NCBI RefSeq assembly: GCF_036365525.1
Contig: NC_090411.1
Span: 31,760,432-31,824,431 of the forward strand
Direction of reading: 5' to 3'
Source of the DNA: Heterodontus francisci
Lineage: Eukaryota
DNA length: 64,000 nt
The notes under the pieces were generated by a model, which was given only the letters and a program-made list of their open reading frames with translations, was not told the DNA's origin and ran no database searches. The translations under genes were made by a program, and so were the position numbers. Shown here one piece after another: positions 1,328-59,937 of this stretch; the first letter of the stretch is position 1; the number at the start of each line of letters is the position of its first letter.

Positions 1328-1397
1328 CATAATCTTTACTGCTAACAGAAGCTAAGTTTAAACAACAGCAAATAACTGCTTCCTACACAAGCTCTTG

Positions 1398-1590
1398 TAT
1401 TTATACTGCTGGGTCAGCCTATAGTCAAACAGGGAATGACATCATTAATGATGATTGACAATTCCAGGTAGCCAGTCAGGAATAGTTCCTGAATCCAGGC
1501 ACCAGTTAACAATGTAGTCAGGCTGTGGGGGTTGGACCCAGAGACAATGAGAGCTGTGGAATACAGGCAGGTTTGGATGATTATATTGTG
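1398..1590 (-). promoter_or_regulatory. Conserved ferritin-array promoter, copy 1
   Basis: TATAAATA ~70 nt above the ATG, then TGACATCA and a block alignable with the same region of copies 2-8 and 10. Confidence 0.7.
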
Positions 1591-1594
1591 ATTG

Positions 1595-2590
1595 GTAGGA
1601 ACAGGATGAGGCCATTCAGCCCCTCAAGCCTATTCAATTAGATCATGGTTTGTGTTTTAAGGCCATTTACCTGCATTGGTTCCATATTGTTTCATACCCG
1701 TACCTAACAAAAATCTAACAGTCTCGGTTTTGGGGGAGAGAGTTCCAGATTTCCATTTCCCTTTTTGTGAAGAAATACTTCTTGACGTCACCCCTAAATG
1801 GCCGAGCTCTAATTTTAAGATTAAACCCCCTGTCCTGGACTACGCTACTGATGGAAATAGTTTCTCTCTATGTACCCTATCAAATCCATTAATCATGTTC
1901 AATACATCAACTGTAATCATTCTTTAATCATCTATACTCGAGGGAATACAAGACTCTTCTATTCAAACTGTACACATAATCTAATCCTGTTATCCCTGGT
2001 ATCATTCTGGTGAATCTGTGCTGCACTCCCTCCAAGGTCAATATATCAGAGCTGAACACAGTCCTCCAGATGTGATCTAACCAGGGCTTTATACAAATAT
2101 AGCATAACCTCCACCCCTTTGTATTCCAACCCCCTTGAAATGAAGTCTAAAATTCTAGTAGACTTTTTAATACATTTATGCACCTATCCACTAGTTTTTA
2201 GTAATTTCTGTACACTGATTCCTAACCCTCTCTGCTCTTCACCATTTAGAAATTACTCTGATTTATCTTTCTTGGTCTTCACATCGAAGTCCATCAATCA
2301 CAATTTTGCTCACTCGCTTAATCTGTCAATGCCCTTTTGCAAATTTCTGCTCCCATTTGCACTGCTTACTGTGCCACCTAACTTAATGGCATCAGCAAAC
2401 TTGGATATACAGTACTCTATTCCTTCATGTATATTATTTATAAATATAATGTAAAGCTGGTGCCCCAGTATAGATCCCTTGGAGTGCATACCCATTATCC
2501 CTACTCTCTTGTCTCCATAAAATATTTAAAGGATTCCTCCAATTCCACAGGCTTCTAACCTAACCTCTTGTATTTAACCTTGTCCATGAT
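1595..2590 (-). mobile_element. Decayed CR1-type LINE 3' fragment
   Basis: Minus-strand remnants GSILG..YIIFIN..ISKFADAIKLGG (ORF 2310-2495) and a CR1-like 3' end; paralogous to 8545-8677 plus 10578-11180. Confidence 0.75.
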
Positions 2591-2625
2591 GTATTTGATA
2601 TTGACTTTCCTCAAACTGAATCTGT

Positions 2626-3786
2626 TGTCACGCAGACCCCCATCTGCCAAGAATGAGGCATACTAATTTCATCATATGAACATTAATTTTAAACTGCTGC
2701 TGGAGTTAAGAAATGACTTGTTAAAGAGATCACCAGACAATTTGGCTGGAAGGACTTCCCTGAGCCAATTAACCCAAATGGCTTTTGATCACCAGCCATT
2801 GAAGGTGTAAGGAAGTGCACTCCAGGGCCTGCTAAGACAATACAATCCACAAACGCAGAAGTGGTTAAGCCAGTTAGTCACACGACTGAGCTGCTGGCCA
2901 ACTTGGGTTTTTATTTGTGCCACACACACAAGAATTCAGGTGGTGTGCAACTGAAGCTGGAACAAGGAAGCCTCTCTCCTGGCTGTCTCTCTCTAGCTTT
3001 CTCCCAAGCAACAAGACCCAAAGAAGACACGCACACCTCGAGAGAGAATAGACTCTGACATCGAAACAAGTTGAAGCATGAGCTGGGCCCCAACAAATAA
3101 CAGGACTTACTGACAACCAAAGACTCCTCATTGACCTCATAGGACAGTAAATAACTAACACATTGCCTCAAACATTTCCGCTTTATTCTTTCTGGTTTTT
3201 CCTTTCTCTATCTGCATGTGTTTGTCTCATATGCATGTCACATATTCACAATCCTTAACTGGATTAGAGTTTAAAATTAATAAACTTCTACCTTTCTTGT
3301 TTAAATGTAAGGAAAACTCTGATTTCTTTACCTTACATTGGAGCTGTGAACAAGTGGTTAGCACCGCAGCCTCACAGCTCCAGCGACCTGAGTTCGATTC
3401 TGGGTACTGTCTGTGCGGAGTTTGCAAGCTCTCCCTGTGACCGTGTGGGTTTTCGCCAGGTGCTCCGGTTTCCTCCCACAGCCAAAGACTTGCAGGTTGA
3501 TAGGTAAATTGGCCATTATAAATTGCCCCTAGTATAGGTATGTGGTAGGAAAATATAGGGACAGGTGGGGATGTGGTAGGAATATGGGATTAATGTAGGA
3601 TTTGTATAAATGGGTGGTTGATGGTCAGCACAGACCCAGTGGGCCGAAGGGCCTGTTTCAGTGCTGTATCTCTAAATAAAGGGGGAAAAAGCTAAAAATA
3701 ACATCTCTGAAATTAAACCCTATTACAGTTAAACCAAGCAAAGGCTGGGATGGAACACCTAGACTCCTTCTCACCTGGTCGTAACA
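2626..3786 (+). mobile_element. Solo LTR (4-bp TSD, Gypsy/ERV-type) with nested SINE
   Basis: Starts TGTCACG, ends CGTAACA (imperfect inverted termini); flanked by direct repeat CTGT (2622-2625, 3787-3790); internal AATAAA near 3280. Confidence 0.75.
3353..3680 (+). mobile_element. tRNA-derived HE1/V-SINE-type element
   Basis: A/B-box head (AGTGGTTAGC..GAGTTCGATTC), V-domain-like core GGTGCTCCGGTTTCCTCCCACA and LINE-like tail; several near-identical copies in the window. Confidence 0.85.
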
Positions 3787-4683
3787 CTGTTCAGATTCAG
3801 AGATTCATAACATAATCCAATGTGTTTACAAAATGGAAATCCTATCTTGCATTGAGTACAATTGGATCGAAAGTAACATTGCTTGGAAAAATTGACATAT
3901 CCCTGCGTGGGTCCAGAACAAGTCGGAGATACCAATCTTGACAATAGATGGAAAGATATCCACACTGAATCTGCAAACCAACCAAGTTGGGTGGGGCAAA
4001 GAAACAGTAGGGGGAAAAAAAAAAATGCTTCAAACAGAACTCTATTGCTCTATCTCTACAGTGTGACATAGAACACCTCCCCATGGAATTTAATATCAGT
4101 AAAGTCATGTTACACCTTCTGCAAAGCTGATGTCTAGTATGAGGGAAGAGTTAGAAGCTGAAGTATCGGGGTTCTCTTACTGTTGCTGCCTGACCCAAGC
4201 CATTGGTAAAAGATAGCCCTTTCGGGAATAGGAGGAGTACAGGTAGTGGTTGAACAAATGGCAGACTAAAGTAATTAATTCTTTACTATGATAAGGCGGC
4301 AAAAAAAGTCAAGTGAAGGCACTAATTCAGCATCCTTCCTAATTTCTTAATATTCCACCTGTAGAGGCAAGAACACTTTTGTAGCAGAAATTGCATATCC
4401 CTTACAAGCTTCGCAATGGCAATTGGGAGATGTGAGTAAATTATCCTAGGCAGGCTGGCTTGGGATACAGAAAAGGTTTAATGGAATTATTATACAGCTA
4501 GACGTAATGATCTGAATAACCAAATAAATTTACTGAATTATACAAAGACCAGTTCCATGATGAATACTTTTATTTCCATATACAGCAAGAGATGAGAAAA
4601 CTGGCAATTAACCAGAAAGCATTCACCAGAATTGGATCACATTTCATTTCCACCATGTGGAAAACAAACATTTCAAACCCCAA

Positions 4684-8270
<3,587 letters not shown>

Positions 8271-8340
8271 CATAATGTTTACTACTAATAGAATAAGTTA
8301 AGCTCAAACAATAACCTAACTTCACCTTGCACAGCTCTTG

Positions 8341-8540
8341 TATTTATACTACTGGGTCAGCCTGCATTCAAACATGGAATGACATCATCAATGATGATTG
8401 ACAATCCCTGATAGCCAGTCAGGAATCTGCCATGAATCCAGGCACCAATTAAGGAGAGGGGGCAGGATGTGATTCCCAGAGCTAATCAGAGGTTTAGAAT
8501 ACAGGCAGGTTTGGATGATTGTTCTGTGATTGGAATATTG
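8341..8540 (-). promoter_or_regulatory. Conserved ferritin-array promoter, copy 2
   Basis: TATAAATA 8341-8348, TGACATCA and the shared upstream block. Confidence 0.7.
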
Positions 8541-8677
8541 GAACAGGAGGAGGCCATTCAGCCCCTCAAGCCTGTTCTGCCATTCAGTTAGAACATGGCT
8601 GGTCTGTATCTTAACTCCATATACCCATCTTGCTTCCATATCTCTTCATACCCTTACCTAACAAATATCTAACAATC

Positions 8678-10577
8678 GTGGCGCCCAGTTTCTACGCCAA
8701 TTTATCTGGACTTATAACCCGTAACTGCTGCCTTCCGTGTTGTTTCAGTCGCTGTGAGGCAACTATGGAGTGACCTCTCCATGGCGCATGCCTGGGCAAA
8801 TTTATGGAGGTTGAGAGTTGCCCAGTCGTCAAAACCCCCCTCTCGGCCTTTCTGGTGGGGTCCAAAGGAGTGCAGGACACGACGTTTGGCACCAGTATGG
8901 CTGCAGGAACTGCCGGAAACATGCCAAAGGTGACACATGACCGCCTACGGGGTTCCGCTCCGGATTTTCTGTTAGGGTTTACTCCCTTAGCCTTGGTCTC
9001 TCCCGAGACGCCCACAAGGCAGTGGGGTTGTTGGGGCCCCTACACAGGTGTAGGATGGTGCCGGTGGGAGGAGGGGATGCAGGCTCCAGAAGCTGGCCGA
9101 GCGCGTCTACCCTGAGGCACAGTGTGGCTTTCGTGCAGAGAGATCGACTATTGACATGCTGTTCTCCCTTCGTCAGATACAGGAGAAATGCCGTGAACAA
9201 CAGATGCCCCTCTACATTGCTTTCATTGATCTCACCAAAGCCTTTGACCTCGTCAGCAGACGTGGTCTCTTCAGACTACTAGAAAAGATCGGATGTCCAC
9301 CAAAGCTACTAAGTATCATCACCTCATTCCATGAAAATATGAAAGGCACAATTCAACATGGTGGCTCCTCATCAGAGCCCTTTCCTATCCTGAGTGGTGT
9401 GAAACAGGGCTGTGTTCTCGCACCCACACTTTTTGGGATTTTCTTCTCCCTGCTGCTTTCACATGCGTTCAAATCCTCTGAAGAAGGAATTTTCCTCCAC
9501 ACAAGATCAGGGGGCAGGTTGTTCAACCTTGCCCGTCTAAGAGCGAAGTCCAAAGTACGGAAAGTCCTCATCAGAGAACTCCTCTTTGCTGACGATGCTG
9601 CTTTAACATCTCACACTGAAGAATGCCTGCAGAGTCTCATCGACAGGTTTGCGTCTGCCTGCAATGAATTTGGCCTAACCATCAGCCTCAAGAAAACGAA
9701 CATCATGGGGCAGGATGTCAGAAATGCTCCATCCATCAATATTGGCGACCACGCTCTGGAAGTGGTTCAAGAGTTCACCTACCTAGGCTCAACTATCACC
9801 AGTAACCTGTCTCTAGATGCAGAAATCAACAAGCGCATGGGTAAGGCTTCCACTGCTATGTTCAGACTGGCCAAGAGAGTGTGGGAAAATGGCGCACTGA
9901 CACGGAACACAAAAGTCCGAGTGTATCAGGCCTGTGTCCTCAGTACCTTGCTCTACGGCAGCGAGGCCTGGACAACGTATGCCAGCCAAGAGCGACGTCT
10001 CAATTCATTCCATCTTCGCTGCCTTCGGAGAATACTTGGCATCAGGTGGCAGGACTATATCTCCAACACAGAAGTCCTTGAAGCGGCCAACATCCCCAGC
10101 TTATACACACTACTGAGTCAGCGGCGCTTGAGATGGCTTGGCCATGTGAGCCGCATGGAAGATGGCAGGATCCCCAAAGACACATTGTACAGCGAGCTCG
10201 CCACTGGTATCAGACCCACCGGCCGTCCATGTCTCCGTTATAAAGACGTCTGCAAACGCGACATGAAATCGTGTGACATTGATCACAAGTCGTGGGAGTC
10301 AGTTGCCAGCATTCGCCAGAGCTGGCGGGCAGCCATAAAGACAGGGCTAAATTGTGGCGAGTCGAAGAGACTTAGTAGTTGGCAGGAAAAAAGACAGAGG
10401 CGCAAGGGGAGAGCCAACTGTGCAACAGCCCCAACAAACAAATTTCTCTGCAGCACCTGTGGAAGAGCCTGTCACTCCAGAATTGGCCTTTATAGCCACT
10501 CCAGGCGCTGCTTCACAAACCACTGACCACCTCCAGGCGCGTATCCATTGTCTCTCGAGATAAGGAGGCCCAAAAGA
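8678..10577 (+). mobile_element. Young RTE-clade non-LTR retrotransposon, internally deleted
   Basis: 11-bp TSD ATCTAACAATC (8667-8677, 10578-10588). ~400 nt GC-rich leader joined to RT-encoding sequence (LAERVYPEAQCGFR..GVKQGCVLAP..LLFADD..YLG) with a C-terminal CxxC..H motif. Confidence 0.92.
9156..10526 (+). CDS. RTE-type reverse transcriptase (N-terminally truncated, no APE domain)
   Basis: 456-aa uninterrupted ORF with RT motifs FIDLTKAFD, QGCVLAP, FADD, YLG and the RTE-typical RRLRWLGHVSRM. Confidence 0.85.
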   Translation: MLFSLRQIQEKCREQQMPLYIAFIDLTKAFDLVSRRGLFRLLEKIGCPPKLLSIITSFHENMKGTIQHGGSSSEPFPILSGVKQGCVLAPTLFGIFFSLLLSHAFKSSEEGIFLHTRSGGRLFNLARLRAKSKVRKVLIRELLFADDAALTSHTEECLQSLIDRFASACNEFGLTISLKKTNIMGQDVRNAPSINIGDHALEVVQEFTYLGSTITSNLSLDAEINKRMGKASTAMFRLAKRVWENGALTRNTKVRVYQACVLSTLLYGSEAWTTYASQERRLNSFHLRCLRRILGIRWQDYISNTEVLEAANIPSLYTLLSQRRLRWLGHVSRMEDGRIPKDTLYSELATGIRPTGRPCLRYKDVCKRDMKSCDIDHKSWESVASIRQSWRAAIKTGLNCGESKRLSSWQEKRQRRKGRANCATAPTNKFLCSTCGRACHSRIGLYSHSRRCFTNH

Positions 10578-11180
10578 ATCTAACAATCTCAGTTTGAAAA
10601 GTTCAATTTACCACCTTCCCCCAGGTTCTGTGGGAGTTTTCTAGATTTCCACTACTCTTTGTGGAAAGAAATGCTTCCTAATATCACCCCTGAATGGCCT
10701 AGCTCTAATTTTAAGATTGTACTTCCTTGTTCTGGACTGCTCCACCAAAGGAAATAGTTTCTCTTTATCTACCCTATCAAGTTCATTAATCATCTTAAAC
10801 ACCTCATTTATAGTGACCCTTTAATCTTCTATACTCAAGGGAATACAAGACTCGTCTATGCAAACTGTCCTCATAATTTAACCCTTTTAGCCTTGGCACA
10901 ATACTAGTGAATCTGTGCTGCACCTCCAAGGCCAATATATCTGAACAGAATACAATACTCTAGATGTGATCTAACCAGAGTTTTAAACAACTGTAGCATA
11001 ACCTCCACCCCTTTGTATTCCAGCCCCCTTGAGACAAAGACTAAAATGCTATTAGACTTTTTAATTTGTTTTTGTCCATTAGTTTTTAGTAATTTCTGTA
11101 CACAGACCTCCTACCCCATTCCCCAAGCACGTCTAAAAGTTGCATCCAATTCCATTTTTCCTAATAATCTCATGTGGAAC
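10578..11180 (-). mobile_element. Decayed CR1-type LINE fragment (interrupted by the RTE)
   Basis: Continues 8545-8677; alignable with 1710-2220. Confidence 0.65.
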
Positions 11181-12406: not shown

Positions 12407-14793
<2,387 letters not shown>

Positions 14794-14859
14794 CTTCACT
14801 ATTACTATATACTATCACTTAAAAGCTCTAAAGTTAACCCTTTCTAATACAAGTTCTTG

Positions 14860-16055: not shown

Positions 16056-17126
16056 GAACATAGAACATAGAACAGTACAGCACAGTACAGGCCCTTCGGC
16101 CCACGATGTTGTGCCGAACCTTTAACCTACTCTAAGATCAAACTAACTACCTACCCTTCATTCTACTATCATCCATGTACCTATCCAGGAGTCGCTTAAA
16201 TGCCCCTAATGTATCTGCTTCTACTACCACCGCTGGCAGCGCATTCCACGCACCCACCACTCTCTGTGTAAAGAACCTACCTCTGACATCTCCCCGAAAC
16301 CTTCCTCCAATCGCCTTAAAATGATGCCCCCTGGTGATAGCCCTTTCCACCCTGGGAAAAAGTCTCTGACTATCCACTCTACCTATGCCTCTCATCATCT
16401 TGTACCCCTCTATCAAGTCACCTCTCATCCTTCTTCGCTCTGAGAAAAGCCCTAGCTCCCTCAATCTTTCTTCGTAGGACATGCCTTCCAGTTCAGGCAG
16501 CATCCTGGTAAATCTCCTCTGCACCCTCTCTAAAGCTTCCACATCCTTCCTATAATGAGACGACCAGAACTGAACACAATATTCCAAGTGTGGTCGAACC
16601 CGGGCCTTATAGAGCTGCAGCATAACCTCGCGGCTCTTAAACTCAATCCCCCTGTTAATGAAAGCCAACACACCATACGCCTTCTTAACAACCCTATCAA
16701 CTTGGGTGGCAACTTTGAGCGATCTATGAACATGGACCCCAAGAACCCTCTGTTCCTCCACACTACCAAGAATCCTGTCTTTAAGCCTGTATTCTGCATT
16801 CAAATTCGACCTTCCAAAATGAATCACTTCACATTTTTCCAGGTTGAACTCCATCTGCCACTTCTCAGCCCAGCTCTGCATCCTGTCAATGTCCCGTTGC
16901 AACCTACAACAGCCTTCCACACTATCCACAACTCAAGCAACTTTTGTGTCATCGGCAAACTTGCTCACCCAGCCTTCCACTTCCTCATCCAAGTCATTTA
17001 TAAAAATCACAAATAGCAGAGGTCCCAGAACAGATCCTTGTGGAACACCACTGGTCACCGAGCTCCATGCTGAATACTTTCCATCTACCACCCTCTGACT
17101 TCTATGGGCCAGCCAATTCCGTATCC
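16056..17126 (-). mobile_element. Young 5'-truncated CR1 LINE
   Basis: RT C-terminal ORFs ([20 protein letters not shown]; 16147-16929, 260 aa) and a CATAGAA tail repeat. The empty site GAGGCTAAAGAATATTTGAATC is seen in the paralogous unit at ~25697-25718. Confidence 0.9.
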
Positions 17127-18629
17127 AGAATATTTGAATCTGATTGAAATGATGAGACTCAAATGATACACAATGGGCCCAAGTGCAAACAGATACATTT
17201 GTGGGGAAACTGATTGCATTTTGTTTATACATTGATGGGTCAACCACGGGGGTGGCATGCATCGGGGAAATGTGTTTTCATGAGAAGCATCTATTTAAAT
17301 AGGTGGGGCTTTAAAGTTATTTGCTTTGTACATTTAATAAAAGACTGTTTGTCGATAACACAACCACTAGATGGCACATGCAGAAATGCAGCATCATTGA
17401 TAAACATAACTTAGCAAAATCTCAGACAGTGTTAATACATTTACACCTTCCTGAGGTATCCTTCATTGGAGCTCAGCTCTGCAAGGATCCACTCCCACCA
17501 GTACCATACCCCATTTCATATGGGAATAAGAGAGGTCATTCCAAGTGGTGGAAAGAGAGTGAAAGATGTGCTGGGATAGGGAAAAGGGCATTTAAGACCC
17601 ATTCTCATGGATTAGGAAACCACACATTCCCCCAAGAGACCAGTATAAAGCAAGCAAATATGGTAACTCTGGTTGATTTGCTAAATCACATGATTGCAAC
17701 TCTTTTAGTAATATGAAGCTCTAAGATTGCTGGTTTAAGGCTGTTTGTGCTGCTCAGCCCACAAAGCTTACCAGAAAGTAAATAGAAGCAGCAATGAGCT
17801 TAATTAACTACCCCTGGTTTAATCTTACACTATTAAGTCAATAGAATGATAGAAGCTTACTACACTTCCCTGGGCTTGTATCTGCTCTGAATAAAATTGT
17901 TCATTGAACTAAAAATGATGATGGCTAGTTCTTCGCAGATAAAGATCAAAAGTGAAATGGTGTGACACTAATGCATTGGAAATGGTTCTGTACATTTTAA
18001 ATACTATAGCAGCTGATATTGTTATATTGAGGAGTTTGAGAGATACTATTGATGTTGGGATAGAGACTATTCATCAACATTGGTAACATTTACTTGTATT
18101 CAGCTGTCTCGGTCCTGAACTTGGGAGTTCCCTCTCTACAAAAGCACTCCTTAAAACCAACCTCTTGAATAAACATTAGGGCACCTGCTCCCTCATCGGT
18201 CCATGTCAAATTTTCCTTTTAGCGTTCGTGTGAAGTACATTGATTGACAATGCTAAAGGGGCTCTATAAATGCAAATTGTTGTATCACTGCATTTCTTGA
18301 CAGATTGAAATGCATAGATACAATTTGTTCAAAAGGTACACAATTGAAGAGAGACCTTCAACAAGTGATGAACATCTGATTCAATCCATCAGAAGGAAAG
18401 ATGGAAAAATAAAGCTGTTATACGGCCCAGTGTAATTCTTGTTTAAATGTAAAGACAAAGTTAATTGAAAATAAGCAACCACCAGAAAGTAGAGACAAAA
18501 CCCAGTCCACTGAGAAAATTATTTACAGTAATTACATTCCACATCAAGAGCCCAGATCTCACAAGCCATCATTCCTCACACATTAGAACAAAAACTTTAA
18601 AGACAAAAGGGCTCAATCCTGCAGTCAGT

Positions 18630-21997: not shown

Positions 21998-24135
<2,138 letters not shown>

Positions 24136-24192
24136 CTTCACTATCTCTATACGCTATTATCTGAAACTAAACCTTTCTCTTACAAGCTCTTG

Positions 24193-24410
24193 TATTTATA
24201 TTCTTGGTCAGACTGCATTCAAACAGGGAATGACATCACCAATGATTGACAATCCCTGATAGCCAGTCAGGAATCTTCCATAAATCCAGGCACCAATAAA
24301 CAAAGGAGAGGAGTTGTGGGGAAGGGGGGGTGATGCCCAGAGCCAATCAGAGCTTTGAAATAGAAGCAGGTTTGAGAGATTAGTCTCGATGATATCACTA
24401 CTTCTGGGTT
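24193..24410 (-). promoter_or_regulatory. Conserved ferritin-array promoter, copy 5
   Basis: TATAAATA, TGACATCACCAAT, GAGCCAATCAG. Confidence 0.7.
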
Positions 24411-27856: not shown

Positions 27857-30088
<2,232 letters not shown>

Positions 30089-30174
30089 CTTCACTTTTAC
30101 TATACACTATTACTGCTCACTACCACCTAAAACACTCTACAACTTACACTTACCTTTTCTAATACAATCTCCTG

Positions 30175-33471: not shown

Positions 33472-35777
<2,306 letters not shown>

Positions 35778-35857
35778 CTTAGTTATTACTATATACTATT
35801 ACTACTCAATATCACCTAGTAAATTCCAGCAATGACCCTTTCTGCCACAATCTCCTG

Positions 35858-39949: not shown

Positions 39950-42089
<2,140 letters not shown>

Positions 42090-42170
42090 CCTCACTATTT
42101 CTGTGCACTAATAACTGCTCACTACTTCCTACAAATTTCCAAAACTTATACTACCTAACACAAGCTCTTG

Positions 42171-44356: not shown

Positions 44357-47267
44357 TCAGTCACTCTCCCCCAGGCTGAGCTTGTCAAACAGGTACTCTC
44401 CCATGTCATTGTCAGGGGCTCCCAGTCTCTTCAGGTTGGTGATGTGCTCTCTAAGCTTCTTGATCATCTTCACTTGCTCATCCAAGTAGTGAGTCTCCAG
44501 GAAGTCACACAACTGAAAAAAAAACCAGATAGGTCCAGCTGTAGAAATCATGAAGTAGTGTCTCAACAACGGTTTGGACATTAATCCTCTTGAACTTGTG
44601 GGTAGAGAAATGGTGTAACGATTAAATGTACTGCTCAAAAGAGGTATATAGATTAATTATCCTACTGTGATCAAACTCTCCTCTCCAAAACACTCAAGAC
44701 ACCAACAGGGAGATATTGGACATTGAAATATTGTGAATGGATTCCAGAGCTGCCAAGATTCATGAACTACAAAAGCCCACATTAAAAGAACTTACATGAG
44801 GGTCAGTGTTGCCAGTGGAGAGTTTGTGCAGATCCAGCAGACTCTGGTTCACATCCTTCTCCATCTGCAGAGCTCTCTGCATTGCCTCCAGACCATTGCT
44901 CCACTCATCCTGCTCTGGCTTCTGAAGAGGAAAGTCAGACAGTTTACTTACAATGGATTTAACAAAAAATACACATTAAATTGCCTGTCACCATAAACCA
45001 CTGTTAGAATATAAATGACTGCATTTAGTTATCACAAGTGGACTGAGGAGGTAAATAGTATATCTATTTAAGGTGAAGCTAGAAATGTGCATAGAAAAGG
45101 AACAGAAGGATATGCTGATCAAGGTTAGTGAAGCAAGGAGAGGAGAGACTGGAGAAATATAAAATACTAGCATAAACCAGCTTGGCTAAATGGCCTATTT
45201 GTGCCTTTTATCAAGTTACAGTCAGTCAGTCATACAGCACAGAAACAGGCCCTTCAGCCCATTGTGTCTGCCAGCCATCAAGCATCTAACTATTCTAATC
45301 CCATTTTCCAACACTTGGCCTGTAGCCTTGTATGCTATGGCATTTCAAGTGCTCATCTAAATACTTCTTAAATGTTGAGGGTTCCTGCCTCTACCACTTC
45401 AGGCAGTGCGTTCCAGATTCCAACCACCCTCTGGGTTAAAAACTTTTCCTCAAATCCCCTCACCTTAAATCTATGCCCCCTGGTTTTTGACCCCTCCGCT
45501 AACGAAAAAAGTTTCTTCCTCTGTAACCTATCAATGCCCCACAATTTTGTATACCTCGAAGGCTTTCCTCCTCACTACTTACAACACCAGTTTTAGTGTC
45601 ATCTGCAAACTTACTGATCATACCTCCTACATTCAAGTCTAAATCATTAATGTGCCCTACAAACAGCAAGGGTCCCAGCACCGATCCCTGTGGTACACCA
45701 CCGGTCATAAGTTGTTTCAGATACTTTCTAAAGCATCAGTTTAAAGGGGATCCAAACAGGAGGCCATTTATTAAACCCAACCTTGATGTCCTCCAAGATG
45801 ATTTGGCCTCCACGTTTATTCTGGAATTTCATCAGTTTCTCAGTGTGCTCCTGTTCCTCATGTGACTGCTCCTTGAAGAACTCAGCAAAGTGACGCAGGG
45901 CAACATCACCCCGGTCAAAGTAATAGGACTGTGGAGAGATTAAAGTAGCATTTGTTTCCCATGGCAGATCAATCATGCATTGCGTACATAAAGCCAATTT
46001 CAATATTTTTCTTTCAAGACTTCACAGTCTCACTAAAAATGCACAGTCTTATTCACTTCAATCGACATGGATTGGATAGTCTCACTCCAAGTCATGGTGA
46101 AACTAGCCAGTGGAAGATTAGGCCATTGGCAAAGGAACTGGGAAATTATCTAATTATCAAGATTTGGATCCTTCAACTAGGTTGATGTTCAATCATTAAC
46201 TATTGACCCAGGTCTGTTTTGTACAGGTTAGTTAAAGGGCACGACTGGAACTGGAGGCAAAGCCCTTAAAGTAGAGATGTAGTTACAGTACACAATTCAC
46301 ATAGTACAATGATGATATAAACAAGTCTGAGTTTTACTGGCTACATTCATCCCATGGACAAGGTCAAAACTACAAGCAGCATTTGGAAACTTCAATACAA
46401 AGTATTTCAGAGGAGAAATTGATACCAAGGAATAAAAAAAAAAGTTAATTGTATGACTGGGAAGTACTCGAAGGTCAAGGCATAGGAAAACAGCAGGACT
46501 GAGGGAGAGCACCCCTGACTAGGGACAAAGTAACTGAAGGCTTGCTACCAATAAAGCAAAAGACTGTATGAGAAAGGACAGAAGGTTACAGCCTGGTACT
46601 TAAAGCCAATAGACAAACAAGAGCAGGCCATTCTGCCCTTCAAATTGAATGGAACAGCCTTGATCATACTGTTCTATCACTTAGCTTTAATCCCTTGCCT
46701 CAAAAGTTCCCGTTATCCCAACAGCCTTTGGCCGAGAGGAGAGAAACAAAAGCAAAAGTTCTAGATTGCTACCATCCTATGTGGAAAAGCACTTCTTGAC
46801 TTCCCTCCCAAATGGCCCAACTTTAATTTTCAGATTAGATTCCTTCATTACGAAAGGCAAGACAGGGAAAAGCTTTTGGGCAATTTCAAATTAAGAATTG
46901 CCAAATATATTCATTGGAATGAGAGGGTATTCCAATAAATCTACAATAACAAACTCACAGGAAAGAGAGTTAAGATTTAACACACTCAAAAAATGGTTCA
47001 GCAATTGCACAGGAGAGAAAAAGTTTGTTCATTAACACACATGATAAATTACATACAGCTTTAAAAAAAAATCACTGTACATAGATTGCAGGAAAATAGC
47101 AGAGTTGGATATATCTCAGTTTAGTAAATTTATAATCTCCATTGAGATAGCGAAAAATGCAAAATTCACCATATTTAAACATAGGAAGAATAGAGCTCCA
47201 GATTGATCTGCTTGTTGACAGCATCCTCACAGCCTTTCTGGTAGTTCTGACACACTTGAGAAGCCAT
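44357..47267 (-). pseudogene. Ferritin copy 9, probable pseudogene with atypical 5' end
   Basis: Exon1 47170-47267 is 98 nt (net -4) and reads ..TAT GTT TAA, an in-frame stop at codon 31. Exons 45782-45928, 44796-44921 and 44357-44512 are open; exons 2 and 4 carry extra missense changes ([19 protein letters not shown]). Confidence 0.85.
45225..45705 (-). mobile_element. CR1 LINE fragments in intron 2 of copy 9
   Basis: [22 protein letters not shown] on the minus strand, plus a CR1 3' end. Confidence 0.8.
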
Positions 47268-49300: not shown

Positions 49301-49387
49301 TACATCAGCTAGAATATGGAGGAGACCCAGGGATGTTGAATTCTTATCATGAAATTTACAAGCAATGATATAGACTGCAGTTCAAAA

Positions 49388-52275: not shown

Positions 52276-54626
52276 TCACTCTTCCCCCAGCATGTGCTTG
52301 TCAAACAGGTACTCTCCCATGCCATTGTCAGGGGCTCCCAGTCTCTTCAGGTTGGTGATGTGATCTCCAAGCTTCTTGATCATCTTCACTTGCTCATCCA
52401 AGTAGTGAGTCTCCAGGAAGTCACACAACTAGAACATAAGAGGAAAACTGGTTATGTCCAGCAGCAGATAAATGAATGTTTCAGCTATCTCTTGGACTGG
52501 AGGATAGTCAAACTTACACCACAATGCAGGTTTGCTCCGGTGATGCAGTAATTGCTGTACAATAGGTGCTTAGTTCCCAGGATCATGGAGACATTGACTT
52601 CTCAAAAATAATGGTCTACTTTACCCTCCATTCCCTAAAGATCTCAGGAGGCACACCAACACAACTATCAGCTCATGATATTCCACCACCTCATATTAAA
52701 AGCATTAAGAACTTACATGAGGGTCAGTGTTGCCAGTGGAGAGTTTGTGCAGATCCAGCAGACTCTGGTTCACATCCTTCTCCATTTGCAGAGCTCTCTG
52801 CATTGCCTCCAGACCATTGCTCCACTCATCCTGCTCTGGCTTCTGAAGAGGACATTTAAAAATGCATCATCAGTTCCTATGGCCAACTTTGAGAATAGCA
52901 GTCAAGGAGTTGGTTTCTCTCAATAGCAAGTATTCAGTTCAATACTGAATAAACACCTGCAAGTTTAAAAGATTCCACCTAGTCTGACAGCAGAGGAGAT
53001 ACTATCCTGTGAACTAATAGCCAAAAGAAGTAGAGATTAGAAACCAGGGTTATTCAAGTTCACAACAGAAAAAAAAAAAGGAGGCCATTCTGCCCATCAC
53101 ATCTTGGCTCTTAAATGAATCCACTCATTCAGCTGCCCTGTATCCTCTTCACTTCCATGTCCATCTACTCCTTCCCTTACAAGATCCAATGGTCTTTGCT
53201 TTGGGTTATTACTTCATAACTAGTTTTTCCAATTTGCAATCATCCTGAATCTACCTTGTCATCTATGGCTTCAATGTCCTTTATCAGCACTGTTCCAGCT
53301 GCCACATTGTTATGTACAAGTTAACTAGCTTGGTTGCTTATGAATGCAATGTTCCTATAGCTAAGCAATTATATTGCCAGCCCACCACAGCCTTGTGTCT
53401 CATGTGATCCATTACTAGTATTTCTCCACAGCTGACCTTGATATCCACTAGGCTGATACGCCCACCACGTTTATTCTGGAATTTCAGCAGTTTCTCAGCC
53501 TGCTCCCATTCCTCATGTGACTGCTCCTTGAAGAACTCAGCAAAGTGACGCAGGGCAACATCATCCCGGTCAAAATAGAAGGACTGTAGGCACAAGAGTG
53601 AATTATACCAAAATGAATTAGTGAGCAACAGAAATAGTGTCAACATGGATCAAATTGCCAAGTTTGATCATGCAAATGATACATTACTGATTTGCAACTC
53701 AAGTTTACCCAAAGAATGGAATAAATTTCTGACATAGAACTAAAGATTTTCAATACCCACAATACAATGGAAGCCTTGAAGTGGGTCTGTGCCCTCACCA
53801 GGTCAGAGAACTTTAGTGCAGAATAGGATAGAATGCAATCCAAAAAACCCAACATTTAAGACAGATATGCTGAGCTTTGTCCAGTCCCAGGTAGTGGAGG
53901 CAGCATACATTGCCATACCCAGAGTCCAATAACAGATATTGGAGTTTGTTTGACTTTAGGTACTAGTTTTATGAGCTGTATCTTCTGACAAGGGGGCAAC
54001 CACAAAAGTAAAAACACTCCCCAATTATATTTTATCCAAATATGAAAGTTTTGTATTGTTTAGAAAAAAAAAGTCATGCTCCCACTCAAGTTTGAATAAA
54101 ACTTTTCAGAAAGGTGAACACAGTTTGTAAATCACCAATTTGCCTTCAGGCATAATAGCTTAAGCAGATTTGTCTACAAGATTTTAGCTTTAATAAAAAA
54201 GGGCATGATGTAGGATCAAGTGTATATAGCTAGTTAAATGCTAATAGATGCATTTTCACTTAACAACTCACTAACAGGGTCATGTAGACTTACTATAGGC
54301 AAGGTCACTTAACTCAGAAGGCATTCACAGGCTAATATTTAAGATTAGGACTGCATTAGTTTTCATAAAGTGATGAGCAAAGGTTGTGGTCAATTTGACA
54401 GAATCAATGATAAGAAAAAGTATAAAATTATTAGAACAGTTAACAACATTAAAAAGTTAATTGACGAGATAACAACTCCACATTAGTTAATAAAACCAAA
54501 TAGACTCAAAGAAACAAAGTATACCATGGACAGGTAAACATAAGAGGAATGGAGCTCCAGGTTAATCTGCTTATTAACAGCATCCTCACAGTCCTTGTGA
54601 TAGTTCTGACGCACTTGGGAATCCAT
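52276..54626 (-). CDS. Ferritin heavy/middle-type subunit, copy 10 (175 aa, divergent; His65>Gln)
   Basis: Exons 54525-54626 ([17 protein letters not shown]), 53437-53583 ([23 protein letters not shown]), 52717-52842, 52276-52428. Ends DKHMLGEE*; TATA 54674-54681; AATAAA 52175-52180. Confidence 0.92.
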
Positions 54627-54673
54627 CTCCACTATAGCAGCTCACAATCACCTAGAAAATTCTAGAACTCTTA

Positions 54674-54865
54674 TATTTATACTATTGGATCAGTCTGACT
54701 TCAAACAGAGAATGACATCACAAATGATGATTGACAATCCCTGATAGCCAGTTAGGAATCTCCCATGAATCCAGGCACCACTTGACAAAGGAGAGGGGGT
54801 GTGGGGGAGGATGATGGGGGGGATGGAGGATGATGGGGGGGGGAGACCCAGAGTCAATCAGCCAA
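54674..54865 (-). promoter_or_regulatory. Conserved ferritin-array promoter, copy 10 (proximal part)
   Basis: TATAAATA, TGACATCA, GGGAGATTCC (54755-54764); the distal part is displaced to ~58590-58635. Confidence 0.7.
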
Positions 54866-55004
54866 TCCAATAGGAAATAGTAGCATAGCAGTTATATTAC
54901 TGGGACTAGTAATTCAGAAGCCTGAACTAATGATCCAGTGGACATAAGTTGAAATCCTTTCATAGCAGGTGGGGAATTTAAATTCAGTTAATAAATATAT
55001 CAGT

Positions 55005-58000
55005 ATTCTGCACTGTGGTTGACTCTTAATTGCCTTCTGAGATGGCTGAGCAAGCCACTCAGTTGTATGAAATGAAAATGTCAAATAAGAATTAAATCGG
55101 ATGGATCACTCAGCTTTGACATAGCATCAGATACAACAAATGCACACTCTGCTCAGTCAACCCTGCAAAGTCCTCCTCCCTCATGTCCGGGGACTTGTGC
55201 CAAAATTGGCAGAACTGTTCCACAGACTAGTCCAACAACAGCCTGACATACTCATACTCACAGAAGCATACCTATTAGCCAATATCCCAGATTCACCCAT
55301 TCCTATCCCTGGGTATGGCCTGTGCCACAGGCAGGGCAGACTCACTAGAAATGGCAGCATTGTGGCATATAGTTGGTCTGGGTGTCCTTAACATTGACTC
55401 TGGACCCTATGAAGTCTCAAGGCATCACGCCAAATGTGGGCAAGGAAACCTCCTGCTGATTACAACCCTACCTCAGCTGATGAATCAATACTCCTCCTTG
55501 TTGAACACCATTTGGAGAGGCACTGAGGGTAACAAGGGCACAGAATATATTCTGGGGGACATCAATGTCCATTATCAAGAGTGGCTCAGCAGCACCATGG
55601 CTGGTTGAGTCCTGAAAGACATACCTGTCAGGCGAGGACTGCCGTAGGTACTGAGAGAACCAACAGGAGGGAAAAACCCACTTGACCTCCTCCTCACCTA
55701 CCTGTTGCAAATGCATCTGTCCTTACAGTGTTGGTAAGAATGACTACAGCACAGTCCTTGTGGAGACAAAATCCTATGTTTACACTGAGGACACCCTCCA
55801 TCGTATTGTGGGGCACTACCGCACATGGGATAGATTAAGAATAGATCTAGCAGCTCAAAACTGGGCATCCATGAGGCACTGTGGGCCATCAGCAGCAGCA
55901 GAATTGTATTCAACCACAATCTGGCATATCCCTAACTCTAACATTACCATCAAGCCAGAAGCAGCACCAGGCAACCTAAAAATGAAGTACCACGCTGGTG
56001 AAGCTACAATGCAAGACAGAATTAGGCAATCCCAATGAATCAGATCAAAGCTCTGCAGATCTGTCATATCTAGTCAGGAATTGATAAGGTGTCGTCAACA
56101 GTGCTATCAAGCAGCACTTACTCACCAATAAGCTGCTCAGTTTGGGTTCCACCAGGATCTTTTGGCTCCAGACCACAATACAGCCTTGGTCCAAACATGG
56201 ACAAGCAGCTGAATTCCAGAAGTAGAGTGACTGCCCTTAACATCAAGGCAGCATTTCACCAAGTTTCACATCAAGAAACCCGAGTAAAATTGAAGGCTAT
56301 GAGAATTGGGGAAAATCCTCCACTGGCTGGAGTCATACCTGGCACAAAGGAAGATGGTTTTCATTGTTGGAAGTCATTCCCCTCAGCCCCAGAACGTTGC
56401 TGCAGGATTTCCTCAGGACAGTTCCTAGGCCCAAATATGCTTCATCAATGGTCTTTCCTCCATCACAAAGTTAGAAGTCGGGATGTTTGTTAATGATTGT
56501 CCAGTGTTTGTTGCATTTGCAACTCTTCAGATAATGCAGCAGTCTGTACCTGCAAGCAGTAAGACCTGGATAACATTCAATCTTGGGCTGATAACATTCT
56601 CACCACACAAGTACCAGTCAATAAGCATCTCCAACAAGAGAGAATCTATCCTCTCCCCTTGACATTCAACTGCATTACCATCACTGAATCCCCCAGAATC
56701 AACATCCTGGGGCTTACCATTTACTAGAAACTGAACTGGACCAGTGATATAAATGCTGTGGCTACAAGAGCAGGTCACAGGCTGGGAATTCTGTGGTGCA
56801 TAACTCACCTCCTGACTCCTCAAAGCCTGTCCACCATCTACAAGGCACAAGTCAGGAGTGCGGTGGAATATTCTCCACTTCCCTAGATGAATTCAGCTTC
56901 AGCAACACTCAAGAACAAAGAACAAAGAGAACAAAGAACAGTACAGCACAGGAACAGGCCATTCGGCCCTCCAAGCCTGCGCCGATCTTGATGCCTGCCT
57001 AAACTAAAACCTTCGGCACTTCCGGGGCCCATATCCCTCTATTCCCTTCCTATTCATATATTTGTCAAGATGTCTCTTAAACGTCGCTATCGTATCTGCT
57101 TCCACCACCTCCCCCGGCAGCAAGTTCCAGGCACTCATCACCCTCTGTGTAAAAAAACCTGCCTCGCACATCCCCTCTAAACTTTGCCCCTCGTACCTTA
57201 AACCTATGTCCCCTAGTAACTGACTCTTCCACCCTGGGAAAAAGCTTCTGACTATCGACTCTGTCCATGCCGCTCATAACTTTGTAAACCTCTATCATGT
57301 CGCCCCTCCACCTCCGTCGTTCTAGTGAAAACAATCCGAGTTTTTCCAACCTCTCCTCATAGCTAATGCCCTCCAGACCAGGCAACATCCTGGTAAACCT
57401 CCTCTGTACCCTCTCCAAAGTCTCAACGTCCTTCTGGTAGTGTGGCGACCAGAATTGCACGCAATATTCTAAGTGTGGCCTAACTAAAGTTCTGTACAGC
57501 TGCAACATGACTTGCCAATTTTTATACTCTATGCCCCAACCGATGAAGGCAAGCATGCCGTATGTCTTCTTGACTACCTTATCCACCTGCGTTGCCACTT
57601 TCAGTGACCTGTGGACCTGTACGCCCAGATCTCTCTGCCTGTCAATACTCCTAAGGGTTCTGCCATTTACTGTATACCTCCCACCTGCATTAGACCTTCC
57701 AAAATGCATTACCTCACATTTGTCCGGATTAAACTCCATCTGCCATTTCTCCGCCCACGTCTCCAACCGATCTATATCCTGCTGTATCCTCTGACAATCC
57801 TCATCATTATCCGCAACTCCACCAACCTTTGTGTTGTCCGCAAACTTACTAATCAGACCAGCTACATTTTCCTCCAAATCATTTATATATACTACAAACA
57901 GCAAAAGTCCCAGCACTGATCCCTGCGGAACACCACTAGTCACATCCCTCCATTCAGAAAAACACCCAGAAGCTTGACACCATCCAGGAAAAAAACAGCC

Positions 58001-58358
58001 TGCCTAATTGGAAGCCCATCCACCACCTTCGACATTCACTCCCTCCACCACCGACGCACAGTGGCAGCCGTGTGTACCATCTACAAGATGCACTGCAACA
58101 ACTCACCTTTGACAGCATCTTCCAAACTTAGCGACCTCTACCACCTAGAAGGACAAGGGTAGCAGGCACATGGGACACAACCAGCGTCAAATTCCCCGCC
58201 AAATGATACAACATTCTGAAACTCATTCCAAACTGCACTGCAGTGTACCTACTCGACAAGGACTGCAGCGGCTCACCACTTTCTCAAGGGCAATTAGGGA
58301 TGGGCAATAAATGCTGGCCTTGCCAGTGATGTGCACGTCCCATCAACTAATAGAAAAA
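55005..58358 (+). mobile_element. Long decayed CR1/L2-group LINE (APE + RT remnants)
   Basis: HVRGL..PDILILTEAYL..IPGY and ILGDINVH (APE); TALNIKAAF (RT); HRRTVAAVCTIYKMH; 3' end shared with 24666-25582. Confidence 0.8.
56911..57965 (-). mobile_element. Young 5'-truncated CR1 LINE nested in the older LINE
   Basis: 288-aa ORF 57077-57943 ([29 protein letters not shown]) and an (AAGAACA)n tail. Confidence 0.9.
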
Positions 58359-58869
58359 AGCTAATATCAGCAATGGTGACCATGAAATTACCAGATTATC
58401 ATAAAAACCCATCTGGTTAACCAATGTCCTTTAGGGTAATAGATCTGACATCCTTACCTGATCTGGCCAATATGTAATTCCACTGCAATGTGGTTGACTC
58501 AACTTCCCTCTGAAATGGCCTCGAAAGCCACTCTGCCATAAATGCTGGTCTTGCCAGCGATGCCCGTAACCTGTGAATGAATTAAAAGAAAATGGGCTGG
58601 CTTTGGCAATTGGTCTTGGTGATGTCACTGCTTGGAACTTTTTTGATGGTCCAATAATGATGATGCTGGGTTGCCCAGAGTGACCAATTAATAGTCATCA
58701 CAACATGTACTCCTTTTATTTTTTTAGTCAAAGTGTTTTGGTTCTACTCATTTGGCTGCCAACTCGGATGATTAAATCATCAATTGGAAATACTTAAACC
58801 ATAAATGTCCCCCTTTTAAAGGGCCACAAACAATAGAATCACAATAAATTATAATCAAACTAATATAAA

Positions 58870-59150
58870 AAAACTATCAAATTATAATTTTACTCTCTGT
58901 ATCCACTGTGCACTGCAGTCCCTCCGGTGCCCACCGATCACAGAAATCTCGAGTGTATTGGTTGTCACCGTATGCTCCCTCTTCAGGGACACCGGGCACA
59001 GGCATGGCCATGGAAGAGATGCGGGTAGCTGGACAAATCTGTCCCCTCGACCATGCTCTGCCTGGACCTGATGGGGTAGCCACCTTGGCCAACCCCAGGA
59101 GCAGACCCACAAGGAGGTCCTCTCACCCGTTCCCCTCCACACCAAGTGGC
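58870..59150 (-). mobile_element. Tx1/L1-clade LINE 3' remnant
   Basis: DLLVGLLLGLAKVA...FCDRWAPEGLQCTVD resembles the Tx1 ORF2 C-terminus. Confidence 0.6.
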
Positions 59151-59779
59151 CAAGATCAGGAGAGTGGGATTGAAGTGAAAAGTGCCTCTTTTAGGTCACC
59201 AGTAATATGAGATAGTCAATTCAGCTAAAAAGATTCAAAATATAAGGATCAAGTGCCATTGCAACAAAAAGATACCTTCCCTACAAAATCAGGATCTTAT
59301 TTTTGACGTGCAAGATACTGTAAATCCTGAGGTGCCCACTGGTGGCAGAAGGCATCCAGGGTACCAGTGGACACCACATGCTCCCTCCCTCAGGGCCATC
59401 TGGGCAACTGCAAGACGATAGAAGAGAAACAGGCAGACAGAATGACCCCACCCAACCAGCTGTCCACCATCCCAACCCCATGGGCCTAACCAGTCCTGGA
59501 ACAACAAATTGCTGAATTAGCTATGCCTAGCAAGCCCAAAAGAAGATCCTGACTTTCTCTCACTCGTCCCTTCGCATCCTGCGGCTACAGATCTAGTAAC
59601 ATTGGGGAAACATAGTGTCTCCTTATGTGTTACTTTAGAAAAGAATACCATTCGTGATGATCATGATTGTTTATTTTTGCTTCCCACGTGTAATATTTTG
59701 AACTTGTCTGCAGTATTCATCCAATGGGGCCCATCAGCAAAGTTCTGCCTGGTCTGAAGTATCATCCCCACTGCACCTT

Positions 59780-59937
59780 ATCCTTGATTGGTGTCCTCTG
59801 TGAGTATAGAGCTCTGATTGGTTACTGGGAGTTGTTACTCATCAGCTGGAATGTCACTCCCTGTATTTAAGGCGCGCTGTCCACATACTATAAATACTGG
59901 AGCTTGGTAGGGAATTAGGTTTATTTAGGAAGTTAGA
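59780..59937 (+). promoter_or_regulatory. Promoter/leader of copy 11
   Basis: Two inverted CCAAT boxes (GATTGG at ~59786 and ~59816); TATAAATA at 59889-59896, only 41 nt above the ATG. Confidence 0.65.

What the first reader, a model, noticed from the sequence alone, without database searches (positions are those of the whole stretch)
1328..59937. Intact copies lack an iron-responsive element
Seen: TATA-to-ATG distances are only ~40-90 nt (1328-1397, 8271-8340, 14794-14859, 24136-24192, 30089-30174, 35778-35857, 42090-42170, 54627-54673, 59897-59937). None of these intervals contains the CAGUGN loop. Known: canonical vertebrate ferritin mRNAs carry a cap-proximal IRE bound by IRP1/2. Inference: this family has escaped iron-dependent translational repression and can be produced when iron is low, as would suit an immune iron-withholding, oocyte/tissue-bulk or antioxidant role.
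Basis: partly seen in the sequence, partly recalled or inferred. Interest (0 to 1): 0.82.

Follow-up and report, generated by a model that had tools for sequence, protein, structure and literature searches.

The report
Shark ferritin array without iron switch
This window sits inside a shark array of about 80 near-identical ferritin genes whose predicted messenger-RNA leaders lack the iron-sensing hairpin found on the animal's two ordinary ferritin genes, so they are likely made in bulk regardless of iron level, probably in the ovary to stock the egg with iron.

Summary
Observation confirmed and extended. The nine intervals are real TATA-to-ATG spacers of nine intact ferritin genes, and none holds an iron-responsive element (IRE). 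The window is the middle of a ~600 kb array: 80 complete four-exon copies, 68 intact, ferroxidase residues kept, pN/pS 0.19. IRE models find no IRE in the array but do find those of two ordinary ferritin genes, one ~30 kb beyond the array's end. Two independent retrocopies of array mRNAs begin 35-43 nt after the TATA box, as retrocopies of the IRE genes do (32, 40 nt), which argues against a hidden upstream exon. The array belongs to a cartilaginous-fish clade. The expansion and its ovary-specific expression are already reported for the Greenland shark (bioRxiv 2024.09.09.611499). I found no report of the missing IRE. Also found: a sister array (14 copies, IRE-less, same promoter motif, Lys at ferroxidase position 62), and exons 2-4 kept near-identical while flanking introns are unalignable. 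Best reading: a transcriptionally controlled, dosage-amplified ovarian ferritin. Immune (epigonal) expression is not excluded. Start sites and IRP binding are untested.

The parts
1328..1405 (-). Copy 1 TATA box (1398-1405) and IRE-less spacer to ATG
321..1327 (-). Copy 1 exons 1 (1327-1226) and 2 (467-321); exons 3-4 lie left of the window; intact, 173 aa
8271..8348 (-). Copy 2 TATA box and IRE-less spacer
4684..8270 (-). Copy 2, four exons (8270-8169, 7314-7168, 6683-6558, 4830-4684), intact, 173 aa
14794..14867 (-). Copy 3 TATA box and IRE-less spacer
12407..14793 (-). Copy 3, four exons (14793-14692, 13953-13807, 13007-12882, 12553-12407), intact, 173 aa
18632..20508 (-). Copy 4, pseudogene: decayed exon 1, frameshifted exon 4
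24136..24200 (-). Copy 5 TATA box and IRE-less spacer
21998..24135 (-). Copy 5, four exons (24135-24034, 23047-22901, 22657-22532, 22153-21998), intact, 176 aa
30089..30182 (-). Copy 6 TATA box and IRE-less spacer
27857..30088 (-). Copy 6, four exons (30088-29987, 29122-28976, 28732-28607, 28012-27857), intact, 176 aa
35778..35865 (-). Copy 7 TATA box and IRE-less spacer
33472..35777 (-). Copy 7, four exons (35777-35676, 34758-34612, 34391-34266, 33627-33472), intact, 176 aa
42090..42178 (-). Copy 8 TATA box and IRE-less spacer
39950..42089 (-). Copy 8, four exons (42089-41988, 40958-40812, 40566-40441, 40102-39950), intact, 175 aa
44357..47267 (-). Copy 9, pseudogene: stops and lost donor in exon 1, no normal promoter spacer
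54627..54681 (-). Copy 10 TATA box and IRE-less spacer
52276..54626 (-). Copy 10, four exons (54626-54525, 53583-53437, 52842-52717, 52428-52276), intact, 175 aa
59690..59937 (+). Copy 11 promoter region (a divergent version of the shared ~200 bp module), TATA box 59889-59896 and 41 nt IRE-less spacer
59938..61937 (+). Copy 11, four exons (59938-60039, 60828-60974, 61306-61431, 61782-61937), intact, 176 aa; first copy of the opposite-strand arm of the array

Best explanation
The window holds 11 copies (9 intact) of a ~600 kb tandem array of shark ferritin genes that keep the ferroxidase residues, have no IRE between TATA box and ATG, and are likely a bulk-made ovarian (probably oocyte or follicle) ferritin controlled by transcription and gene dose instead of by iron. 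Shown: the array, intact ORFs under purifying selection, no IRE, a shared promoter module absent from the IRE-bearing genes, a poly(A) signal per copy, spliced transcripts in related organisms. Inferred: transcription starts ~30 nt after the TATA box, giving 19-75 nt weakly structured leaders that IRP1/2 cannot bind. Protein would then be made ahead of iron arrival, as a pre-built sink that takes up iron delivered to a very large yolky egg, keeps it harmless during storage and supplies the embryo. The two single-copy IRE genes would do ordinary iron-responsive storage. Exon-limited gene conversion likely keeps the subunits interchangeable within the 24-mer. The sister array 5 Mb away (Lys at position 62) would supply a ferroxidase-poor partner subunit.
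For: 80 complete copies, 68 intact; seven ferroxidase positions kept in 66-68 of 68; pN/pS 0.19. No IRE by four scans with working positive controls. Retrocopies on C5 and C48 carry 45-53 nt of leader colinear with array DNA and start 35-43 nt after the TATA box; retrocopies of the two IRE genes start 32 and 40 nt after their TATA-like boxes. AG just before the ATG (29 of 68) has a pyrimidine fraction of 0.40 against 0.77-0.85 at true acceptors. TGATGTCA occurs in 60 of 68 array and 9 of 13 sister-array promoters, 3% of shuffles, and 0 of 5 other ferritin genes. AATAAA lies within ~175 nt of the stop in 67 of 68. Contigs of public runs join exons at GT-AG (intron 1 in 3 of 4 runs, intron 2 in 4 of 4). 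The Greenland shark preprint reports the expansion and ovary-specific expression of its largest cluster. Mammalian FTHL17 is a multi-copy germline ferritin and FTMT is IRE-independent.
Against: No tissue or start-site data for this genome: no run holds half the query words, tissues are not given, and contigs cannot show starts or levels. Orthology to the Greenland shark cluster is inferred, not tested. Shark ovaries lie inside the lymphomyeloid epigonal organ, so 'ovary' RNA can be immune-cell RNA. 12 of 68 copies have a YAG with a pyrimidine tract between TATA and ATG and could accept an upstream exon. One contig in run X2 spans exon 4 of one copy to exon 1 of the next, so read-through RNA may exist. 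No CPE-type motif (recalled consensus) near the poly(A) signal in any of 68 copies, which is not typical of stored maternal mRNA. The IRE model rests on four near-identical IREs and could miss atypical ones. Only two independent retrocopies reach far into the leader; a third (C36) keeps 10 nt.
Confidence: 0.6

Rival explanations
1. The array is an immune ferritin made by myeloid cells of the epigonal organ to withhold iron from microbes. Loss of the IRE lets it be made at low iron, and the reported 'ovary' signal comes from the epigonal tissue around the ovary.
For: Ovaries are enclosed in the lymphomyeloid epigonal organ and immune genes appear in shark ovary transcriptomes (passage). IRE loss fits this equally well. 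Salmon ferritin isoforms respond to infection (passages).
Against: The Greenland shark passage calls the expression ovary-specific. The salmon isoforms that respond to infection all keep IREs. Immune gene arrays usually diversify (general knowledge), whereas this one is homogenised and under purifying selection.
Confidence: 0.18
2. The IRE-less state holds, but the protein's main job is not iron provisioning. It is a general antioxidant, other-metal sink or bulk storage protein in the egg or another tissue.
For: The sister array has Lys at ferroxidase position 62 and a His-rich stretch in 13 of 13 copies checked. Array subunits carry an N-terminal Cys that the IRE genes lack.
Against: The main array keeps all seven ferroxidase residues plus Glu57 and Glu64. 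ARE and MRE consensus matches (recalled motifs) are below shuffle level in array promoters, 7 and 2 of 68.
Confidence: 0.1
3. The array is largely a by-product of tandem duplication and conversion; a few copies matter, and the IRE was lost incidentally when an ancestral duplicate picked up a new promoter.
For: 12 of 80 complete copies are broken and about 11 further fragments lie in the array. Mirror-image arms share 96-100% intron identity, so some copies are very recent or reflect two haplotypes in the assembly. Conversion from a few selected copies could lower pN/pS in the rest.
Against: Related many-member protein clusters occur in at least ten shark species and the clade includes Callorhinchus. 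Promoters are more conserved (p 0.20) than leaders (0.35), 3' UTRs (0.42) or introns (0.33-0.48) across 66-68 copies.
Confidence: 0.08
4. The leaders are iron-regulated after all, through an upstream exon, a farther start site or an IRP-binding element too unusual for current models.
For: 12 of 68 spacers hold an acceptor-like site. A few weak descriptor hits lie 430-1063 nt or more upstream of some copies. A possible read-through contig exists.
Against: Retrocopy 5' ends. The descriptor hits lie upstream of the TATA box in few copies and score nothing in the covariance model. Leaders are 6% C with median folding energy -4.7 kcal/mol.
Confidence: 0.04

Closest known systems
Shark ferritin clusters described in the Greenland shark genome (Sahm et al., bioRxiv 10.1101/2024.09.09.611499)
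   Same: Large ancient tandem expansion of full-length ferritin genes shared among distant sharks; largest cluster expressed in ovary (passage).
   Different: That text labels copies FTL/FTH1 and has no occurrence of 'iron', so nothing on IREs, promoters, retrocopy starts, the Lys62 sister array or exon-limited homogenisation. Identity of the clusters is inferred, not tested.
Canonical vertebrate H and M/L ferritin genes (FTH1, FTL, teleost and frog M)
   Same: Four exons and three introns; ferroxidase centre; closest solved structures include frog M ferritin, E 2e-82. The array lies ~30 kb from an IRE-bearing ferritin gene on a contig that also carries RUVBL-family and glycogen synthase loci, which are FTL neighbours in human (recalled).
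   Different: No 5' IRE; ~80 copies; short C-poor leader; CpG-poor TATA promoter with its own motif (CpG o/e 0.15 against 0.58 and 0.98). All five salmon H and M paralogues keep IREs.
Mammalian FTHL17 family
   Same: Multi-copy (six in mouse), germline-expressed ferritin family beside the housekeeping genes (passages).
   Different: FTHL17 lacks ferroxidase activity and is recalled as intronless; the shark main array keeps introns and ferroxidase residues and is over ten times larger. FTHL17's IRE status was not seen in the passages read.
Mammalian mitochondrial ferritin FTMT
   Same: Ferroxidase-competent and not regulated by IRE/IRP.
   Different: Single intronless retrogene with a targeting peptide; array proteins have no N-terminal extension.
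Concertedly evolving high-dose gene arrays (histone, oocyte 5S, protocadherin clusters; recalled)
   Same: Tandem copies, coding parts homogenised, spacers divergent, copies group by species in the tree.
   Different: Here homogenisation stops within ~10 nt of each splice site and spares exon 1 in part.

Membership tests
Vertebrate cytosolic ferritin, H/M type | Ferritin domain sequence, 170-185 aa | tested here: met
   PF00210 on all 120 listed homologues; PDB ferritins at E~1e-82; 173-176 aa
Vertebrate cytosolic ferritin, H/M type | Four exons, three introns | tested here: met
   spliced joints
Vertebrate cytosolic ferritin, H/M type | Ferroxidase residues E27, Y34, E61, E62, H65, E107, Q141 (human H numbering, recalled) | tested here: met
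   66, 68, 67, 68, 67, 68, 68 of 68 intact copies
Vertebrate cytosolic ferritin, H/M type | Ferroxidase activity and 24-mer assembly | not testable with these tools
   needs recombinant protein
IRE/IRP-regulated ferritin mRNA | Cap-proximal IRE (C bulge, 5-bp stem, CAGUGN loop) | tested here: not met
   positive controls on C14 and C41 detected
IRE/IRP-regulated ferritin mRNA | IRP binding and iron-dependent translation | not testable with these tools
   needs gel shift or reporter
FTH1 orthologue | Groups with vertebrate FTH1 in a tree | tested here: not met
   The C14 IRE gene groups with ray and chimaera H ferritins (SH-aLRT 98); the array forms its own clade with Callorhinchus (100/95)
FTL/M paralogon | Synteny with RUVBL2 and GYS1 (human neighbours recalled) | tested here: inconclusive
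   RUVBL-family locus ~1.1 Mb and glycogen synthase ~6 Mb away on C41, but paralogue identity was not determined, C14 also has a glycogen synthase near its ferritin, and the deep tree nodes are unresolved
Greenland shark ovary-specific ferritin cluster | Orthologous cluster with ovary-specific expression | not tested
   no Greenland shark sequence or tissue-labelled RNA was available here; one search gives text only
FTHL17-like germline ferritin | Lack of ferroxidase activity | tested here: not met
   main array keeps the centre; only the sister array has Lys62
FTMT-like mitochondrial ferritin | N-terminal targeting extension | tested here: not met
   array proteins start at the ferritin domain; a neighbouring non-array gene has such an extension

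The most novel reading that the evidence does not exclude
Cartilaginous fishes run a second, IRE-free ferritin system for the egg. Two co-regulated tandem arrays, one ferroxidase-active (~80 copies) and one Lys62 ferroxidase-poor (~14 copies), re-invent the H/L heteropolymer outside IRP control. Gene conversion confined to coding exons keeps the subunits uniform, and exon 3 with the start of exon 4 is held almost fixed at the nucleotide level across distant sharks by a further, unknown constraint.
Probability: 0.25. Interest if true: 0.75.

Novelty: new variant of a known kind. Interest (0 to 1): 0.5.

Why it matters
IRE control of ferritin is a textbook constant of vertebrate iron biology; the known exceptions are few, small mammalian offshoots. 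An old, intron-bearing, catalytically intact family of ~80 IRE-less genes would explain why sharks amplified ferritin and how a very large egg might be loaded with iron safely. It makes maternal iron provisioning in egg-laying and live-bearing sharks directly testable. It also warns against reading shark ferritin copy number as a longevity or ferroptosis adaptation of one species, because the clade spans sharks and chimaera. The expansion and the ovary link are already in a preprint, which caps the surprise.

Tried and rejected
RNA evidence for start sites: no RNA holder was listed on record. Contigs from four runs did not align to the leader at 85% and cannot show starts or levels. Two contigs run 38 and 47 nt past the ATG, which fits short leaders but is not evidence. 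CpG decay as the reason for exon differences: rejected, since exon 1 is the most variable and has no CpG-touched synonymous site. GC-biased conversion or codon bias as the reason for frozen exons 2-4: not supported, as four-fold sites are mixed in base and GC3 is 0.61-0.71. An RNA structure in exon 3: not supported, best z -2.5 among 15 windows against synonymous shuffles. The exon 1-2 junction pattern found only one retrocopy; similarity searches found the rest. Retrocopies on C3, C4, C10, C32, C34 and others are 5'-truncated or come from other ferritins and say nothing on leaders. The decayed IRE at C41:32261227 was considered as an upstream exon for array genes and rejected: it lies beyond the array's end, ahead of a broken exon 1. 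NOBOX-like TAATTG (60 of 68, 28% of shuffles) and CCAAT (68 of 68, 79% of shuffles) are too common to lean on. Structure and complex prediction were not run: any ferritin pair would pass by likeness to solved cages. Literature searches found no statement on IREs in shark ferritins; a review on IRE evolution that I recalled was not held. Earlier scan notes: three look-ups returned nothing.
Full report
What is in the window. The window is G000:C41:31,760,432-31,824,431 in a 6.0 Gb genome. The best protein hits carry the label Heterodontus francisci, followed by other sharks. It holds 11 ferritin gene copies: ten on the - strand and one on the + strand. Nine are intact; the copies near 20.5 kb and at 47267 are broken. 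The nine intervals of the finding are the spacers between a TATAAATA box and the ATG of the nine intact copies.

The IRE is absent. No spacer contains CAGTG, but that alone is what chance gives for ~50 nt. Rfam on the window returned 10 matches at E<=10, none an IRE. A genome search with RF00037 scored 82 candidates and found four IREs: two intron-bearing ferritin genes (C14:46,650,093 and C41:32,278,910) and a retrocopy of each. A covariance model from those four, run on 861,497 bases including the whole array, found the two genes and one decayed IRE with a CAGUCC loop before a broken exon 1 at C41:32,261,227. The best other score was 17.2 bits. Rfam at gathering score on 14 of the loci gave the same three. 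A descriptor scan with 18 recalled loop words over 1 kb upstream of 84 exon-1 copies gave 8 hits; only the IRE gene's hit lies in a leader, and the other 7 are 430-982 nt upstream.

The array. Over C41:31.56-32.35 Mb I found 84 exon-1, 91 exon-2, 90 exon-3 and 93 exon-4 matches, a few of them from divergent neighbours. They assemble into 80 complete array genes between about 31.65 and 32.24 Mb, 68 with open frames and GT-AG sites, plus fragments. The seven ferroxidase residues are kept in 66-68 of 68 and pN/pS is 0.19. For 77 copies with a normal spacer, predicted leaders are 19-75 nt with median folding energy -4.7 kcal/mol and about 6% C. Strand polarity flips inside the window. Of 20 intact - strand copies, 12 have a + strand partner with 96-100% intron-1 identity in mirror order, a palindrome centred near the window's right end. 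It may be real or partly two haplotypes, so the copy count is an upper bound.

Is the start site right? Processed pseudogenes act as natural 5' ends. The C5 retrocopy carries 47 nt and the C48 retrocopy (present twice, counted once) 45-53 nt of leader colinear with array DNA, beginning 35-43 nt after the TATA box; the C36 retrocopy keeps only 10 nt. Retrocopies of the two IRE genes begin 32 and 40 nt after their TATA-like boxes and include the IRE. The AG before the ATG in 29 of 68 copies is not acceptor-like (pyrimidine fraction 0.40 against 0.77-0.85). Against this reading, 12 of 68 spacers do hold a YAG with a pyrimidine tract, and one contig in run X2 runs from exon 4 of one copy to exon 1 of the next. 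Promoters are conserved over ~200 bp (p 0.20, against 0.33-0.48 in introns, 0.35 in leaders, 0.42 in 3' UTRs). TGATGTCA is in 60 of 68 and a TGATTGACA word (recalled as a TALE-factor site) in 57 of 68, against 1-3% of shuffles and 0 of 5 other ferritin genes. A recalled ARE consensus is in 7 of 68 (17% of shuffles), while both IRE genes have a match.

Expression and spread. Four public runs (RNA by guess, contigs only, coded organisms) were laid on the + strand copy from its promoter into exon 4. They cover exons and join them at GT-AG sites. This shows spliced transcripts of the family in other organisms, not tissue, level or start. A homologue search listed 120 of 335 hits; the top ones are many-member clusters from Pristiophorus, Heptranchias, Chiloscyllium, Stegostoma, Rhincodon, Carcharodon, Cetorhinus, Mustelus, Scyliorhinus and Hemiscyllium. 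A tree of 77 rows (65 of the 120 hits, 8 array copies, 4 neighbours) puts the array in one clade with these and two Callorhinchus proteins (100/95), apart from both IRE-bearing lineages. Copies of Heptranchias and of this genome group by species. Deep nodes are unresolved, so loss of the IRE rather than primitive absence is an inference: near-identical IREs sit on both paralogous genes, and an IRE relic lies in the same cluster. RUVBL-family and glycogen synthase loci on C41 hint at the FTL/M paralogon (human synteny recalled). Three aconitase-family loci fit ACO1, IREB2 and ACO2 but were not assigned.

A sister array. At C41:26.67-26.84 Mb lie 14 further four-exon copies, the last broken. They have no IRE (best 14.3 bits), share the promoter motif (9 of 13) and carry Lys at position 62 in 13 of 13, as does the Heptranchias orthologue. 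In a 44-row quick tree (36 of 80 rows dropped) they are sister to the main array with modest support (SH-aLRT 84; 97/81 for the Heptranchias protein). Lys62 is the L-chain state (recalled), so a ferroxidase-poor partner is predicted, not shown.

Exon-limited homogenisation. Mean pS is 0.27, 0.077, 0.030 and 0.075 for exons 1-4, and 37 of 68 copies share one identical exon 3. Diversity jumps within ~10 nt of each splice site. In 225 of 400 random pairs the introns flanking exon 3 are as unlike as shuffled sequence (0.43 against 0.42), yet exons 2-4 differ by 2-3%, the same as in pairs with near-identical introns. Gene conversion confined to coding exons is the simplest account; no formal test was run. 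In run X5, whose codon states point to a distant shark, differences from the array majority number 11 in exons 1-2 (249 nt) and 1 in exon 3 plus the first 99 nt of exon 4 (225 nt). The runs were picked by shared words and the tool drops human-like contigs, so this is a lead only.

Literature. Sahm et al. (bioRxiv 10.1101/2024.09.09.611499; seen: abstract, outline, one passage, Discussion; supplements and browser not seen and they may bear on novelty) report 155 FTL and 179 FTH1 annotations, about 80% in three clusters syntenic with the white shark, and ovary-specific expression of the largest; 'iron' does not occur in the main text. [quoted passage not shown] PMC4117605 (passages) finds IREs on all five salmon paralogues. 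PMC7760355 (passages) covers FTMT as IRE-independent and FTHL17 as a germline, ferroxidase-dead family. PMC3944790 (passages) added nothing. Ten searches found no statement on IREs in shark ferritins; most subscription journals are not in the library. I recall a second Greenland shark genome report on ferritin expansion; one search did not find it.

Verdict. Most likely (0.6) this is a transcription- and dose-controlled ovarian ferritin that works outside IRP control while two single-copy genes keep it. The epigonal immune reading (0.18) is the main rival. The array is known; its IRE-less leaders, the Lys62 sister array and the exon-limited homogenisation appear not to be described. New variant of a known kind, interest 0.5.

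Noticed in passing
G000:C41:32264920-32275078 (L070, L071): Intron-bearing, IRE-less ferritin gene in a CpG island with a 51-64 aa N-terminal extension (6-9 Arg/Lys, no Asp/Glu) conserved in Heptranchias and two Scyliorhinus species. It looks like a mitochondrial presequence, which would be a mitochondrial ferritin independent of the mammalian retrogene FTMT; a signal peptide is not excluded.
   Followed up: partly
G000:C41:26667352-26838783 (L099-L116): Second ferritin array of 14 copies, IRE-less, same promoter motif, Lys at ferroxidase position 62.
   Followed up: yes
window exon 3 copies, e.g. 61306-61431, 22657-22532: Exon 3 is identical in 37 of 68 intact copies while flanking introns are unalignable, and it appears nearly unchanged in distant sharks; no RNA structure signal found.
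   Followed up: partly
window ~55000-64000 and G000:C41:31.69-31.96 Mb: Strand switch inside the window; the array forms a large palindrome with 96-100% intron identity between mirror copies. Real amplicon or haplotype artefact not resolved.
   Followed up: partly
L069:6796-6831 (G000:C41:32261227): Decayed ferritin exon 1 with an IRE relic whose loop reads CAGUCC; still scores 37.6 bits in Rfam.
   Followed up: partly
G000:C41:32259658 (-) and 32310856 (+): Two further divergent single ferritin genes beside the array, both without an IRE and with changed ferroxidase residues.
   Followed up: partly
L003 (C1) and L087/L088 (C48): Two unrelated ferritin retrocopies begin right after the same word of the same tandem repeat, hinting at site-specific retrotransposition into a shark satellite.
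   Followed up: no
array leaders, e.g. window 14794-14859: Predicted leaders are strongly C-poor on the sense strand (6% C against 18% in intron 1), and 31 of 68 intact copies have an in-frame ATG directly before the start ATG.
   Followed up: no
run X2, record 7: A 2528 nt contig joins exon 4 of one copy to exon 1 of the next over 2346 other letters: tandem order in another organism, and possibly read-through RNA.
   Followed up: no
window 9054-10526, 16147-17277, 57077-58003, 61034-61240: LINE-type reverse-transcriptase fragments between copies and a palindromic repeat remnant in intron 2 of the + strand copy; ordinary shark repeats.
   Followed up: no
P0076, P0121: Database errors: a shark-type ferritin labelled Aeromonas veronii on an 866 nt contig, and a 721 aa gene model that fuses several array copies with the N-extended gene.
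   Followed up: no
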